DNA of 13,819 bases from a virus (lineage: Duplodnaviria > Heunggongvirae > Uroviricota > Caudoviricetes), in IMG/VR virus record IMGVR_UViG_2534681934_000027. The stretch is one strand, 5' to 3'. This document shows positions 1 through 3,000 of the stretch, piece by piece; position 1 is the first letter of the stretch, and every line of letters begins with the position of its first letter. The position numbers are program-made.

Positions 1-3000
1 ATGAGCAGAGCACTTAACAAACTGAGCGATACACAGCTGAGGAAAATCAACGGCACACCCGCCCAAAAAACAGCCTTTCTTAATGACGGTGGAAACCTGA
101 GCGTCAGGCATTCAACCAGTGGCCTTTTAACCTGGTATTTCACTTACAGGGCCGGAACGGGAAGGGGGGCACCACCGGAACGCATTAAGCTGGGAAATTA
201 TCCTGATCTGAGCCTGAAATCAGCCAGGGAAAAAGCCGCCCAGTGTCGCGCATGGCTGGCAGAGGGGAAAAATCCACGTCATGAGCTTAATTACACCGTA
301 CAGGAAGCGTTAAAGCCGGTAACGGTTGGCGATGCGCTCACCTACTGGCTTGAGTCGTACGCAAAGGAAAACCGCGTGGATTATGCCGCCCTGAAAAAGC
401 GCCTTAATAATCACGTAATACAGCACATTGGTGCTATGCCGCTGGATAAATGCGAGCTACGGCACTGGCTGGCCTGTTTTGACCAGGTGGCAAAGCGAAC
501 GCCTGTTACTGCCGGATTCTTGCTACAGACGTGCAAACAGGCGCTTAAGTTCTGCCGGAGGCGGCGCTATGCAATCAGCAACGTTCTTGATGATATGAGT
601 GTGGCGGACGTTGGGAAAAAACCGGATATAAGCGAGCGTGTCTTAAGCACCAAAGAACTGGGCGAATTATTGCAGGCACTGGACAAAAAAATATTCTCCC
701 CCTACTACATCGCGTTAATCCGCCTCCTGATTGTGTTCGGATGCCGGACGGTAGAACTGAGGTTATCGGAGATCAGCGAGTGGGATTTTACCGAAATGCT
801 CTGGACCGTTCCGAAGGAGCACAGCAAAACGAAGGTAGCCATATTCCGGCCTATACCGGAAGCAATACTGCCGTTCATCACGCAGCTGGTGGAGCAGAAC
901 AGGCACACGGGCTTATTGCTGGGGGAAGTGAAACAGGAGGCCAGCGTATCGCAGTATGGAAGATTAGCGCACAGGAGGCTTAATCACCCTCACTGGTCAC
1001 TGCATGACATCCGGCGCACCTTTACAACCATGCTGAACGATTTAGGCGTTGATCCGCATGTCGTGGAGCAGCTTACAGGCCACCAGATGCCAGGAATGCA
1101 GCGAGTTTATAATCATTCCCGTTATCTGGATGCGAAACGCAATGCGCTGGATATGTGGACGGAGCGGTTAGGGATACTGGCGGGAACACATGAAAACGTA
1201 ACCACGCTACCAGTAGCCAGAAGAAAATAATTTTTTTCGTGTTTTTTCAGTATGCGCATACTGGATATGCGAACAGATACAACGTGCAACAATGAGCAAC
1301 AATGAGCAACAATGTGGAACAACTACGAACAAGAGGCGAAAAAGCGTACGGATTTATAAGTAGCTGATTTTTAATGTGTTACTGGTTTTTTATACACTAG
1401 CGAATCACTCTTTAAAGAGCGAGAAAAAAGGCATGGAACAATATTTTATGCCTTTGTATTAACATGAATTTAAAAGATTTTATTCTTACTTTTTCATTTT
1501 CTGTAAATCATACATCCTCAGTATTTGCCATTCATCACTCTAGCGGGAACAATACGACACAATAAGACACCTGATGACTCTTTAAGAAACGAAAGGGGGC
1601 AATAGTGTTAAGCACTGATCGGTTTATACGTGAAAAAGAATGCGAAAAACTAACCGGCCTTAGCCGTACGTGTCGCTACCGCCTGGAAAAGGCCGGACAA
1701 TTCCCATCACGTCGTAAACTTGGCGGTCGTTCCGTTGGCTGGTCTTTATCCGAGGTTCTGGCCTGGAAGGATAGCTGCAAGGCAGTTCATTAATCACGCT
1801 GGCGGCACACAGCCGCCACACATCAATCATCTGAACACAGAGCTATAACCATGAAGATTGAATATACGCCAGAACGTGGGCGGGGATTCGTTCGCCCTGG
1901 TGAGACTGGAAAACCACAAAATTGGGGTTTTTCAGGCATAAAAAAAGCGGCCCCGAAATGGAGCCGCCTTTCTGAACAGATAACCCGCTGCGCCTTATGT
2001 GTATATGATCCCAAACATAAGCACGGGGATGATAGCCGCTATCAGGCTGGTGGGCAATGCTATCAGTCTGGTTCAGTTCGTTGCCATACCTGCAATGGGC
2101 GCGTTTCCCTGTACTCTTTAAGGAATTGCTCAAGGGCAAAAGCACATGGCGCGAATCTTTCTGATTCATGCTCTATCTTTCTGCGCCGTCTTTTCCGTGC
2201 CGGTGATAATGTTTTGGTCAATTCTTTATCGGTCATTGTGTTGTCCTGCATAGCAATGCGCCGTAATACCTCACACCACGGCGCTGATAGTTTTTATCCT
2301 TTGGGTTCTATGCCGCGTTGCTGTAATTCTTTGCGGAGAACGCGTTTAATCCAAGTGGCTAAAGATGTGTCGCCATCGGCCTTAGCAGCTTCTTCTAGCT
2401 GCGCTCTGAAGTCTTCCGGTAATCGCATTTGGTATGGAGGCGAACGTTTTTCTAATGGTGTTGACATGGTAATTACCCTTTATTGCTATACCTACATGGT
2501 AATTACCATTGTACTTGCCATTACACAAAAATCAACGCCCCGCAGTGCTGGGAACACATACGGGGCGTCTAACCAACAACGTAAACTAGGAGCCGTTATG
2601 GTTGCCGTAAATCATATACCACACCTTGTACACACACAAACGGCCTTTGTGTGGCGTTTTCTGGCACTGAGTGCCGGAGAATCTCAAATCATCCACGTAA
2701 CCGCCTGGACGGAACGCGAAGCGCGTAACCGTTGCCCGTCCGGTTGTGTTGCTGTATTTGCCGCCCGTATTCGTCAGGAGGTGCGCCATGATTAATCTGT
2801 CACTTACTGACCTTAACCGCATTCAGTTTCGTGAGAAATTCACAGGGCAGCTACTGGTCAATGTGGATAAAGGTCGCGTGGTGTGTAATTACCACTTACC
2901 AGATGAAGCAATTGTCGCCACAAGGGAATCATTACAGGAAATCACAAAACGTGCCGGAATGATTAACACGAATATTCAGGGGATGCTTTATGCACAATAA

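What the first reader, a model, noticed from the sequence alone, without database searches (positions are those of the whole stretch)
2598..2795. Real small gene hidden inside an implausible 314-aa ORF, possibly Icd-like
The long ORF 1851..2795 has non-protein-like composition and overlaps minus-strand genes, but its last 65 codons follow a strong AGGAG-ATG start and are coupled to the next gene. The TEREAR and VFAARIRQEVRH motifs resemble Icd-like cell division inhibitors of P4-like elements.
Basis: partly seen in the sequence, partly recalled or inferred. Interest (0 to 1): 0.45.

Follow-up and report, generated by a model that had tools for sequence, protein, structure and literature searches.

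The report
Icd/Kil-type division inhibitor, nested gene
The 65-codon gene is a real, already annotated relative of the phage P1 Icd and P4 Kil cell-division inhibitors. The long reading frame around it looks like junk protein but is kept open across many related satellite elements, much like the known eta/kil nested pair of phage P4.

Summary
Window 2598-2795 is a genuine 65-aa gene of the Icd-like family (NCBIfam NF033153, 64.8 bits against a cutoff of 25). RefSeq already annotates it at exactly these coordinates (WP_000226782.1) in E. coli O157:H7. It has an AGGAG-N5-ATG start, overlaps the next gene by 8 nt, and varies mainly at third codon positions.

P1 Icd (shown experimentally to bind FtsZ through residues 12-51) and the 65-aa P4 kil ORF hit the same model. 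The invariant residues here (R20, E39, R57) align with predicted FtsZ-contact residues of P1 Icd.

Unlike P1 and P4, no C4/CI antisense RNA precedes the gene. Instead there is a divergent ribbon-helix-helix-like repressor gene on the minus strand, with two palindromic operators.

The extension is not protein-like and shows no amino-acid constraint. However, its frame is stop-free in nine mutually unalignable relatives (shuffle P &lt;= 0.003 each), and in most relatives examined it begins at or within about 60 nt of the stop of the upstream alpA/Bro-type gene. That matches P4 eta, whose translation prevents Rho termination.

The small gene is already known. The eta-like bridge running antisense to a protein repressor operon is a plausible new variant.

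The parts
1605..1793 (+). alpA (62 aa), AlpA-family regulator. It is the upstream gene of the putative read-through operon and lies in the same frame as the long ORF.
   Evidence: Pfam Phage_AlpA 61.8 bits. RefSeq annotates an HTH regulator here. [quoted passage not shown]
1800..1818 (+). GC-rich hairpin just after the alpA stop, with no U-run.
   Evidence: The fold of 1794-1850 gives -16.3 kcal/mol, z = -4.5. Function not tested.
1851..2795 (+). 314-aa long ORF (frame open from 1794), a candidate analogue of P4 eta. The extension 1851-2597 runs antisense through the repressor operon and joins the Icd-like gene in frame.
   Evidence: There are 0 stops in 147 non-genic codons, against 7 and 13 in the other two frames. 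Dinucleotide shuffles give P(0) = 0.0003-0.0014. Openness is conserved in relatives. No family hit. No codon-position bias in variation, 24/23/20.
1941..1975 (-). Intrinsic terminator of the minus-strand repressor operon (stem plus U7 on the minus strand). It is weaker on the + strand.
   Evidence: Minus-strand fold -27.6 kcal/mol, z = -3.7. Plus-strand fold z = -1.6, followed by CUUUCUG. The same poly-A/GC-stem/T-run appears as the 'KTKAAxPGR' peptide motif at the 5' end of long ORFs in other loci.
2063..2251 (-). ORF62, second gene of the minus-strand operon. It is related to the C-terminal part of 101-aa YlcI/YnfO-family proteins.
   Evidence: phrog_21027, E = 3e-16. Its 90% cluster contains 101-aa YlcI/YnfO proteins. 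It has the same phase relative to the long ORF as the RHH gene.
2294..2467 (-). 57-aa ribbon-helix-helix/Arc-like protein, the putative repressor of the divergent promoters.
   Evidence: phrog_228 Arc-like repressor, E = 1.5e-6. Weak Arc and YlcI/YnfO hits. Variable sites 0/2/34 by codon position. Homologous minus-strand genes are annotated as YlcI/YnfO in other E. coli genomes.
2464..2510 (.). Two copies of ACATGGTAATTACC (core palindrome GGTAATTACC), 30 bp apart. These are putative operators. TTGACA at 2461-2466 is a candidate -35 for the + strand promoter.
   Evidence: the repeat finder D1 and I1. The promoter scan found only a minus-strand promoter-like site, 2535->2508. The + strand promoter is read by eye and is not supported by the scan.
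2535..2575 (+). Conserved leader hairpin ACGCCCCG-N18-CGGGGCGU followed by invariant UCUAACCA. Function unknown.
   Evidence: Alignment of 22 diverse loci. RNAalifold finds 10 pairs, 4 with compensatory changes. No Rfam match. A covariance model built from it does not hit the C4 regions of P1 or P4.
2588..2592 (+). Shine-Dalgarno AGGAG of the Icd-like gene.
   Evidence: Sequence. A purine-rich SD and the ATG are aligned in all 22 leaders.
2598..2795 (+). Icd/Kil-family gene (65 aa): the finding.
   Evidence: NF033153 64.8 bits. RefSeq WP_000226782.1. 113 homologues, mostly 62-67 aa. Variation 20/25/47 by codon position. AF2 model with pLDDT 72.5, beta-beta-alpha-beta.
2788..3000 (+). Next gene (70 aa, unknown function), translationally coupled to the Icd-like gene by an 8-nt overlap.
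   Evidence: phrog_340, E = 1e-23. RefSeq WP_000609225.1. The near-invariant His64 of the Icd-like proteins, read against the sequence, supplies the AT of this ATG (codon CAT followed by G).

Best explanation
**Context.** The window is a PICI/P4-like phage satellite of E. coli O157:H7 lying between roxA and phoQ. Its gene order is int, alpA, a small minus-strand repressor operon, and then a rightward early operon that begins with the gene in question.

**1. Shown: a real Icd/Kil-family gene.** Window 2598-2795 is a real 65-aa protein gene of the Icd/Kil family. It has its own SD and ATG. It is the first gene of the early operon and overlaps the next gene by 8 nt.

**2. Inferred by homology: the product binds FtsZ and blocks Z-ring formation.** P1 Icd does this through its residues 12-51, which correspond to residues 17-60 here and include the invariant R20, E39 and R57. 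The effect would be to delay host division while the satellite replicates. As in P1 (icd to ant) and P4 (kil), translation of this ORF probably also gates expression of the genes behind it. My estimate for FtsZ binding is about 0.6.

**3. Shown and inferred: regulation differs from P1 and P4.**
- Shown: there is no C4/CI antisense RNA.
- Inferred: a divergently transcribed RHH-like protein represses the promoter region through two palindromic operators.

**4. Inferred from comparative genomics: the 314-aa ORF is the counterpart of P4 eta.** When transcription enters from the alpA side, ribosomes would translate this 'spacer' ORF across the antisense of the repressor operon. That would keep Rho off the RNA and deliver translation to the icd start. 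Continuity of translation, not the extension's amino-acid sequence, is what selection keeps. In this window the bridge happens to be in frame with icd, as in about 40% of relatives. My estimate for this eta-like role is about 0.55.
For: **Gene identity**
- NF033153 scores 64.8 bits, with P1 Icd at 52.6 and P4 kil at 76.1 on the same model.
- RefSeq annotation lies at identical coordinates.
- Homologues are mostly 62-67 aa with a conserved core and variable N-terminus.
- Variation is biased to third codon positions, 20/25/47.
- The SD and ATG are aligned in 22 diverse leaders.

**Function**
- P1 Icd binds FtsZ, and residues 12-51 suffice (PMC11897509). That is exactly the stretch of P1 Icd matched by the HMM.
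- P1 residues R15, E32 and R49 align with the invariant R20, E39 and R57 here.
- The AF2 model has three strands plus one short helix, as that paper reports for Icd12-51.

**Regulation**
- C4 is found upstream of icd/kil in P1 and P4, but nothing is found in the window.
- The RHH-like gene is under strong constraint, 0/2/34.
- Operator repeats are present.

**Eta-like ORF**
- The P4 long ORF of 199 codons is in frame with kil and starts at an ATGA overlap with the alpA homologue ORF88.
- Its role is described in PMC10111431.
- In nine mutually unalignable loci the non-genic 130-227 codons of the extension have 0 stops, against 6-22 in each of the other frames. Shuffle P(0) is at most 0.003 for each locus.
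- The best + frame has 2 or fewer stops per 250 codons in 83% of 42 locus clusters, against 8% of 156 control windows.
- Long-ORF starts overlap or abut the stop of the upstream alpA/Bro-N/AntA/ANT gene.
- The long ORF either joins icd in frame (17 clusters) or stops within -27 to +13 nt of its ATG (20 clusters).
- L003 and L015 both stay open despite many indels that are not multiples of three.
- 71% of 133 motif-bearing family representatives carry at least 100 aa N-terminal to a C-terminal Icd-like domain.
Against: - **No expression data.** There is no expression, TSS or ribosome-profiling evidence for either form.
- **Weak start for the long ORF here.** ATG 1851 has only a weak SD (acagag) and lies 57 nt after the alpA stop, behind a stable hairpin. 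Coupling therefore looks poorer than in the relatives.
- **Weak signal inside the minus-strand genes.** There, the lack of antisense stops is only weakly unusual given the protein sequences. P(0) is 0.05-0.66 per locus.
- **Long antisense ORFs do occur by chance.** The same window has examples of 228 aa and 191 aa.
- **Locus clusters are not fully independent.** They share mosaic segments.
- **The in-frame fusion is not itself selected.** 17 of 42 clusters is about one third.
- **No + strand promoter for icd** passed the consensus scan.
Confidence: 0.75

Rival explanations
1. Only the 65-aa gene is functional. The 314-aa ORF is a chance or 'shadow' reading frame antisense to the repressor operon and is never translated.
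For: - The extension has non-protein-like composition and flat GC by codon position.
- It has no Pfam or PHROG match.
- Its variation shows no third-position bias (24/23/20).
- The start context is weak.
- Other shadow ORFs of 191-228 aa exist in the window.
- PGAP does not annotate the long ORF as a functional gene here: it calls 1851-2444 a pseudogene fragment and 2598-2795 the Icd-like gene.
- Within the minus-strand genes the absence of stops is not very surprising.
Against: - The same property recurs in sequence-unrelated relatives from Klebsiella, Cedecea, Pantoea, Hafnia and Enterobacter, with 0 stops in 130-227 non-genic codons each.
- Control antisense windows never reach 0 stops.
- The 5' ends of the long ORFs are tightly coupled to upstream genes.
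- P4 eta is an experimentally supported precedent (PMC10111431).
Confidence: 0.3
2. Only the long form is real. Translation starts at 1851 and there is no independent 65-aa protein.
For: Many gene callers and older GenBank records call the 314-aa ORF and long forms elsewhere.
Against: - A strong SD and ATG at 2598 are conserved in all leaders.
- In 20 of 42 clusters the long frame stops just before the icd ATG, so there the small gene must initiate on its own.
- Most homologues are 62-67 aa.
- P1 Icd (73 aa) and P4 Kil (65 aa) are free-standing products (PMC10111431).
- A divergent promoter/operator region lies inside the long ORF.
Confidence: 0.03
3. The conserved sequence is mainly an RNA element (a C4/CI-like immunity RNA or its target) rather than a protein gene. 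The PHROG label 'transcriptional repressor' would reflect that legacy.
For: - In P4 the old 'cI protein' CDS (8168-8584) covers both the CI RNA and kil. This explains the 'transcriptional repressor' labels of phrog_1743 and phrog_6196.
- A conserved hairpin with covariation lies in the leader.
Against: - No C4, isrK or c4-a1b1 match was found in the window even at E &lt;= 10, whereas P1 and P4 score 69-75 bits.
- The hairpin lies upstream of the ORF, not in it.
- The ORF shows protein-type variation and a protein HMM match.
- The leader covariance model does not find the C4 regions of P1 or P4.
Confidence: 0.02
4. The Icd-like ORF is translated, but its main role here is cis-acting: translational coupling and anti-polarity for the replication operon. 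The peptide would have little or no activity against FtsZ in this satellite.
For: - In P1, icd is 'apparently required for expression of ant' (annotation).
- In P4, translation of the kil/eta region controls termination (PMC10111431; for kil specifically, Forti et al. 1999 from memory).
- The C-terminal tail of the protein is shaped by the SD and ATG of the next gene.
- Identity to P1 Icd is only about 37%.
Against: - The 45-aa core is strongly conserved at the protein level across genera, including residues predicted to contact FtsZ (PMC11897509).
- A purely cis-acting role would not conserve the amino-acid sequence.
Confidence: 0.15

Closest known systems
Phage P1 Icd (immI operon: c4 - icd - ant1/2)
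   Same: - It hits the same NCBIfam domain, NF033153.
- It is a small protein of 73 aa, against 65 aa here.
- It is the first translated gene of an operon and overlaps the start of the next gene: ATGA in P1, ATGATTAA here.
- R15, E32 and R49 of the P1 FtsZ-binding core (residues 12-51) are conserved (PMC11897509).
- The predicted three-strand plus one-helix fold is the same.
   Different: - Identity is about 37%.
- P1 has a C-terminal tail (residues 52-73) that is absent here.
- P1 icd is controlled by the C4 antisense RNA immediately upstream. None is present here.
- The downstream gene is not an antirepressor.
- P1 has no long in-frame upstream ORF: only 11 open codons.
Satellite phage P4 kil / eta nested genes (left operon, PLE/PLL)
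   Same: - The kil ORF is 65 aa, carries its own SD, and hits NF033153 at 76 bits.
- It is nested at the 3' end of a longer in-frame ORF (eta, 199 codons) that starts at the stop of the alpA homologue ORF88.
- The element type is the same: int, alpA, and a primase or helicase.
- Translation of the long form reportedly prevents termination (PMC10111431, citing Forti 1999).
   Different: - P4 eta contains the CI RNA gene and the seqA/isrK-like target. The window's long ORF instead runs antisense to a protein repressor operon (RHH-like plus ORF62) with palindromic operators.
- The long ORF here is 314 codons and starts 57 nt after alpA rather than overlapping it.
- Nothing has been tested experimentally for this element.
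Gram-negative PICIs (EcCICFT073, EcCIEDL933, EcCIMP1) and their 'Bro zone'
   Same: - The layout int - alpA - variable regulatory zone - replication - late genes is shared.
- alpA is the helper-induced master regulator (PMC11773190; 10.1101/2022.09.08.507074; PMC10111431).
- Relatives of this locus carry Bro-N, AntA, ANT or pRha genes between alpA and the long ORF.
   Different: - The papers read here do not mention the Icd-like gene, the antisense RHH operon or the conserved bridging ORF.
- This element has only a partial packaging module: an E-like capsid gene, a decoration gene, and a terS interrupted by an IS.
Lambda Kil, T7 Gp0.4, T5 Hdi (other small phage FtsZ inhibitors)
   Same: They are small phage-encoded proteins that block Z-ring formation. 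This would be the same cellular outcome if the homology-based inference holds (PMC11897509).
   Different: They are unrelated in sequence and fold. They are helix-turn-helix hairpins, whereas Icd has a beta-sheet plus a helix (PMC11897509). This is a functional analogy only.

Membership tests
Icd-like family (NCBIfam NF033153, prototype P1 Icd) | Match to the family HMM above its curated cutoff | tested here: met
   64.8 bits against a cutoff of 25, residues 17-60, full profile 1-48. P1 Icd itself scores 52.6 bits.
Icd-like family (NCBIfam NF033153, prototype P1 Icd) | Small free-standing protein (about 60-75 aa) with its own ribosome-binding site | tested here: met
   65 aa with AGGAG-N5-ATG. 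Homologues are mostly 62-67 aa. The SD and ATG are aligned in 22 leaders.
Icd-like family (NCBIfam NF033153, prototype P1 Icd) | Conservation of the functional core (P1 residues 12-51), including the predicted FtsZ-contact residues R15, E32 and R49 | tested here: met
   Alignment A1 has F21, A36, E39, A42, R43 and R57 invariant, and R20 present in at least 90% of sequences. P1 R15 aligns with R20, E32 with E39 and R49 with R57. Core defined in PMC11897509.
Icd-like family (NCBIfam NF033153, prototype P1 Icd) | Fold of three beta strands plus one short helix, as predicted for Icd12-51 | tested here: inconclusive
   The AF2 model shows E17-25, E32-36, H39-45 and E50-59 with mean pLDDT 72.5 from a shallow alignment. 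This is consistent, but both structures are predictions. No solved relative exists.
Icd-like family (NCBIfam NF033153, prototype P1 Icd) | Binds FtsZ and causes filamentation when expressed | not testable with these tools
   Shown only for P1 Icd (PMC11897509). P4 Kil causes cell killing (PMC10111431).
P1 immI-type / P4-type RNA immunity (C4/CI antisense RNA upstream of icd/kil) | C4 (RF01695) RNA gene and its a/b or seqA targets upstream of the ORF | tested here: not met
   P1 scores 68.8 bits for C4 plus a c4-a1b1 match. P4 scores 74.9 bits for C4 plus an isrK match. The window has no match at E &lt;= 1 overall or at E &lt;= 10 in 1780-3000. The leader covariance model is unrelated to C4.
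P4 eta/kil nested gene pair | Short Icd-like ORF nested in frame at the 3' end of a long ORF that begins upstream of the internal promoter, next to the alpA homologue | tested here: met
   In the window, 249 codons precede the 65-codon gene in frame, and the frame is open from the alpA stop. In P4, 134 codons precede kil in frame, with an ATGA overlap with ORF88.
P4 eta/kil nested gene pair | The long frame is maintained by selection rather than by chance | tested here: met
   (details in the report). Caveats: the locus clusters are partly mosaic, and the signal within the minus-strand genes is weak.
P4 eta/kil nested gene pair | Translation of the long ORF suppresses Rho-dependent termination of transcripts from the upstream promoter | not testable with these tools
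   Reported for P4 (Forti 1999, via PMC10111431). No expression data are available for this element.
PICI / P4-like phage satellite | int, alpA, a replication gene (primase or helicase) and a few hijacking or packaging genes in an island of about 10-15 kb, without a full phage gene set | tested here: met
   The window contains int at 1-1230, alpA, a RepA-family helicase at 3982-5382, ssb, perC, an E-like capsid gene, a decoration gene and terS, all between roxA and phoQ.

The most novel reading that the evidence does not exclude
Enterobacterial PICI-type satellites conserve a translated 'bridge' ORF whose product sequence is irrelevant. It runs antisense through the satellite's own protein-repressor (RHH / YlcI-YnfO) operon, from the alpA/Bro gene to the ribosome-binding site of the Icd-like gene. 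Ribosomes on this ORF would protect alpA-initiated transcripts from Rho, and might also interfere with repressor expression.

On this reading it is the protein-repressor counterpart of the P4 eta/CI-RNA arrangement. It would also be a case of two functional, fully overlapping antisense reading frames with coinciding wobble positions.
Probability: 0.5. Interest if true: 0.6.

Novelty: new member of a known kind. Interest (0 to 1): 0.38.

Why it matters
The small gene matters only modestly. It adds an uncharacterised satellite-borne member to a family whose prototype was shown in 2025 to target FtsZ. It also suggests that PICIs, like P1 and P4, hold back host division when they are induced.

The surrounding architecture is more interesting.
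- The long frame looks like an annotation artefact. PGAP labels its front part a pseudogene and omits the two minus-strand genes in O157:H7 records.
- Yet the frame appears to be conserved for its translation rather than for its product.
- If confirmed, it would generalise the P4 eta mechanism (translation as anti-termination) to many PICIs.
- It would show that RNA-based immunity can be swapped for a protein repressor encoded on the opposite strand of the same DNA.
- It would give annotators a rule for a recurrent conflict between long ORFs and small antisense genes.

Tried and rejected
- **C4/CI/isrK RNA upstream of the gene.** I searched Rfam over the whole window at E &lt;= 1 and over 1780-3000 at E &lt;= 10, with P1 and P4 as positive controls. 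Nothing was found in the window.
- **Leader hairpin as a vestigial C4.** A covariance model built from 22 leaders did not hit the C4 regions of P1 or P4. The idea was rejected. A search for a pairing partner of UCUAACCA in the window found nothing.
- **Synonymous-codon shuffles of the minus-strand genes.** The evidence for avoidance of antisense stops was only weak, with P(0) of 0.05-0.66 per locus. The argument therefore rests on the non-genic parts and on cross-locus recurrence.
- **Codon-position periodicity to decide which strand codes across the RHH gene.** This is uninformative because the third codon positions of the two frames coincide.
- **Consensus promoter scan.** It found no + strand promoter for icd. 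TTGACA at 2461-2466 with a poor -10 remains a by-eye candidate only.
- **Known domains in the long extensions.** Pfam and PHROG found nothing except a weak Bro-N/Ant remnant in L008.
- **Forti et al. 1999 (PMC94026).** The paper is not held. I cite it through PMC10111431 and from memory.
- **First attempt at search for related loci.** It failed when P1 and P4 were included in the alignment.
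Full report
**Where the window comes from**

Window 1500-3500 is 100% identical to many E. coli O157:H7 chromosomes. In strain TR01 the element lies between roxA and phoQ. It carries the following genes:
- int and an AlpA-family regulator;
- the gene in question and several small ORFs;
- a RepA-family helicase, ssb and perC;
- a lambda-E-like capsid gene, a decoration gene and terS.

This is the layout of a Gram-negative phage-inducible chromosomal island (PICI) or P4-like satellite. In the window itself, terS is interrupted by an IS3-family element.

**Check of the observation**

- ORF 1851-2795 encodes 314 aa.
- Its last 65 codons follow AGGAG (2588-2592), a 5-nt spacer and ATG 2598.
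- Its stop codon (2793-2795) overlaps the next gene's ATG (2788) by 8 nt, and that ATG sits behind AGGAGG.
- The ORF runs antisense to two minus-strand ORFs: 2467..2294 (57 aa) and 2251..2063 (62 aa).
- The 249-aa extension has atypical composition: Cys 4.8%, Ser 12%, Glu 2%, and flat GC across codon positions.

**What the small gene is**

[quoted passage not shown] Pfam has no model for it.

RefSeq annotates WP_000226782.1 with that name at exactly these coordinates, so the gene is already known to annotation. A search of 5.8 billion proteins returned 113 relatives. Nearly all are E. coli Icd-like proteins of 62-67 aa with a conserved core (F-x-W-R-F ... T-E-R-E-A-R ... F-A-A-R-I-R) and a variable N-terminus.

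P1 Icd (73 aa, 52.6 bits) and a 65-aa ORF of P4 (76.1 bits) belong to the same family. The P4 ORF lies just downstream of the CI RNA and has its own CAGGAGG-N8-ATG. It is the kil gene described in the literature (PMC10111431).

Across 51 distinct homologous sequences, variable sites fall 20/25/47 on codon positions 1/2/3, as expected for a protein under purifying selection. In 22 diverse leaders the ATG and a purine-rich SD are aligned.

ATG 2598 is therefore the start of the short form. The in-frame ATGs further upstream (2466, 2496) lie inside the operator repeats.

**Probable function of the product**

A 2025 study showed that P1 Icd blocks Z-ring formation and binds FtsZ directly. It also showed that residues 12-51 are sufficient (PMC11897509). 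That stretch is exactly the part of P1 Icd matched by the HMM.

In my alignment the residues which that paper predicts to contact FtsZ (R15, E32, R49) correspond to R20, E39 and R57 of the window protein. E39 and R57 are invariant across the family, and R20 is present in at least 90% of sequences.

FtsZ inhibition is thus an inference from homology, which I rate at about 0.6.

The C-terminal tail (Q-E-V-R-H-D) is shaped by the next gene's SD and ATG. The near-invariant His64 codon, CAT followed by G, provides that ATG.

As in P1, where icd overlaps ant1 and is annotated as required for ant expression, translation of this ORF probably also gates the genes behind it.

**Regulation differs from P1 and P4**

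Rfam finds C4 (RF01695) immediately upstream of icd in P1 (68.8 bits) and of kil in P4 (74.9 bits), together with their a1b1/isrK-type target sites. The window has no such match, even in a permissive local search.

Instead, the 130-bp region between 2467 and 2598 holds two copies of ACATGGTAATTACC (core palindrome GGTAATTACC) 30 bp apart. It also holds a minus-strand promoter-like site.

The divergent 57-aa ORF is Arc/ribbon-helix-helix-like (phrog_228, E = 1.5e-6; weak Arc and YlcI/YnfO hits). It is under very strong constraint, with variable sites 0/2/34. In other E. coli genomes PGAP annotates the homologous minus-strand genes as YlcI/YnfO family proteins.

I infer a protein repressor acting on divergent promoters. 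This is not shown.

A strong terminator for the minus-strand operon sits at 1941-1975. On the minus strand it folds at -27.6 kcal/mol with z = -3.7 and is followed by U7. On the plus strand it is weaker.

**The long ORF: not simply an artefact**

In P4, kil is the 3' end of a 199-codon in-frame ORF whose ATG overlaps the stop of the alpA homologue ORF88. This is eta. According to PMC10111431 (citing Forti et al. 1999, J Bacteriol 181:5225), eta is translated only from the upstream late promoter, and its translation prevents transcription termination. Kil is the short form. The window shows the same geometry, so I tested whether its long frame is conserved.

*Data set.* I collected 11 loci from different species, 80 viral or satellite contigs and several E. 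coli loci. I then clustered the 1 kb upstream of the Icd-like core into 42 groups.

*Recurrence of the open frame.*
- Upstream of the core, the Icd frame is stop-free for at least 200 codons in 17 groups. The other two frames are typically open for only 12-40 codons.
- In the 750 nt upstream of the gene, the best + frame has 2 or fewer stops in 83% of groups and none in 38%.
- Among 156 control windows, these figures are 8% and 0%. The controls are the antisense frames of the downstream genes in the same loci.

*Nine loci that megablast cannot align to each other.* These come from the window, other E. coli types, Klebsiella, Cedecea, Pantoea, E. ruysiae and Hafnia.
- The parts of the extension that are not antisense to a recognisable gene span 130-227 codons each.
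- They contain 0 stops in the Icd frame and 6-22 stops in each of the other frames.
- Dinucleotide shuffles give P(0) of at most 0.003 per locus. For the window the value is 0.0003-0.0014.

*Start of the long ORFs.* They begin at or beside the stop of the upstream + strand gene.

| Locus | Position of the upstream gene's stop relative to the long-ORF ATG |
|---|---|
| L003 | ATGA overlap |
| L011, L013 | 8-nt overlap |
| L012 | 17-nt overlap |
| L014, L085 | 9-11 nt upstream, with good SDs |
| Window, L008 | 53-58 nt upstream |

Those upstream genes are alpA or Bro-N/AntA/ANT-pRha antirepressor-like genes.

*End of the long ORFs.* In 17 groups the long ORF joins icd in frame. In 20 groups it stops within -27 to +13 nt of the icd ATG, for example at the TAG inside the SD cTAGGAG. 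In 4 species loci it continues in the frame of the next gene. In-frame fusion (about 40%) is therefore no more frequent than chance. What recurs is an ORF that bridges the upstream operon to the icd ribosome-binding site.

*Phase of the minus-strand genes.* In every locus the RHH-type genes lie in the same phase relative to the long ORF, the phase in which third codon positions coincide.

*Gene-caller output.* Among 133 motif-bearing representatives of 50%-identity clusters, 71% carry at least 100 residues N-terminal to an Icd-like domain that is always C-terminal.

*What is not conserved.*
- Variation in the non-genic parts shows no codon-position bias: 24/23/20 in the window's relatives and 25/15/26 between L003 and L015.
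- L003 and L015 both stay open although their alignment needs many indels that are not multiples of three.
- No Pfam or PHROG family matches the extensions.

This pattern fits selection for continuous translation, not for a protein product. That matches what is reported for P4 eta.

*Caveats.*
- Inside the minus-strand genes, the absence of antisense stops is only mildly unusual given the protein sequences.
- The window has other shadow ORFs of 191-228 aa.
- Locus groups share mosaic segments.
- The window's own start (ATG 1851) has a weak SD and follows a stable hairpin.
- There are no expression data.

I put the eta-like reading at about 0.55.

**Most likely mechanism**

- *Repressed state (inferred).* The RHH-like protein occupies the two operators and keeps the rightward promoter off.
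- *Induction (inferred, by analogy with characterised PICIs).* The helper phage turns on alpA (PMC11773190; 10.1101/2022.09.08.507074).
- *Read-through (inferred).* Transcripts entering from alpA must cross about 0.8 kb that is antisense to the repressor operon. Untranslated antisense RNA is a classic Rho substrate (established knowledge). Translation of the bridging ORF would protect the RNA and hand ribosomes to icd and the coupled downstream genes.
- *From the internal promoter (shown for the sequence features, inferred for their use).* The 65-aa Icd-like protein is the first product.
- *Effect on the host (homology inference).* The protein binds FtsZ and delays division during satellite replication.

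**Comparison with known systems and novelty**

The protein is a member of the Icd/Kil family and is already annotated. The nested long/short arrangement is known from P4. PMC10111431 notes that PICI 'Bro zones' contain eta-like genes and sometimes CI/seqA relatives.

Three points are not mentioned in any of the papers I read:
- the bridging frame is conserved in elements that lack the RNA immunity system;
- it overlaps, antisense, a protein repressor operon;
- a distinct conserved leader hairpin replaces C4.

I therefore rate the finding itself as a new (uncharacterised) member of a known kind. The architecture is a possible new variant, described under the novel case.

**Annotation note**

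In O157:H7 RefSeq records PGAP calls 1851-2444 a pseudogene ('Icd-like, missing C-terminus') and omits both minus-strand genes. Older GenBank records call the 314-aa ORF a hypothetical protein. In related E. coli genomes the minus-strand genes are annotated instead. The conflict is systematic and is explained by the overlap described here.

Noticed in passing
window 2535-2575: A conserved leader hairpin (ACGCCCCG-N18-CGGGGCGU) followed by invariant UCUAACCA lies 22-63 nt upstream of the icd ATG. It is present in 22 diverse enterobacterial loci and has compensatory base changes. It is not in Rfam and is not detectably related to C4/CI. Its function is unknown.
   Followed up: partly
window 9868-11081 (minus strand); ALIL pseudoknot 10684-10800: An IS3-family insertion sequence (orfA 10755-11081, orfB 9868-10758, programmed-frameshift pseudoknot RF01497 at 121 bits) is inserted near the 3' end of the satellite's terS gene. 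Strain TR01 has the same island without the roughly 1.3-kb insertion.
   Followed up: partly
window 1851-2444 and 2063-2467; L001 12352-12945: RefSeq/PGAP annotates the front of the long ORF as a pseudogene ('Icd-like, missing C-terminus'). It leaves the constrained RHH-like gene and ORF62 unannotated in O157:H7. Homologous minus-strand genes are annotated as YlcI/YnfO family proteins in other E. coli genomes.
   Followed up: yes
window 1800-1818: A stable GC hairpin (UGGCGGC-ACACA-GCCGCCA, z = -4.5) lies right after the alpA stop, without a U-run, and just upstream of the long ORF's ATG. Its role is unknown: it could be an mRNA stabiliser, a pause site or a partial terminator.
   Followed up: no
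window 2038-2072: A 21-bp tandem direct repeat (GCTATCAGGCTGGT...) lies inside the long ORF. One relative (L053) lacks one unit, which is an in-frame 7-codon difference.
   Followed up: no
L060, L062, L063, L065, L067, L070, L081, L083, L084, L098 (about 460 nt downstream of the first icd-like gene): Some related satellites carry a second, diverged Icd-like paralogue (core FVWRFMQC...TAATEREARAQLPHAHLIFVARIRQ) a few genes downstream. It is absent from the window. L007 and L013 carry a truncated or variant first copy followed by a second copy.
   Followed up: no
P4 genome L004 8168-8584 (minus strand): The legacy 'cI gene product, transcriptional repressor' CDS of the P4 record covers both the CI RNA gene and kil. 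This probably explains why phrog_1743 and phrog_6196, which match Icd-like proteins, are labelled 'transcriptional repressor'.
   Followed up: partly
window 4905-5591 (minus strand): A 228-aa ORF lies antisense to the 3' end of the RepA-family helicase gene and the following region. I used it only as an example that long antisense ORFs occur and did not examine it further.
   Followed up: no
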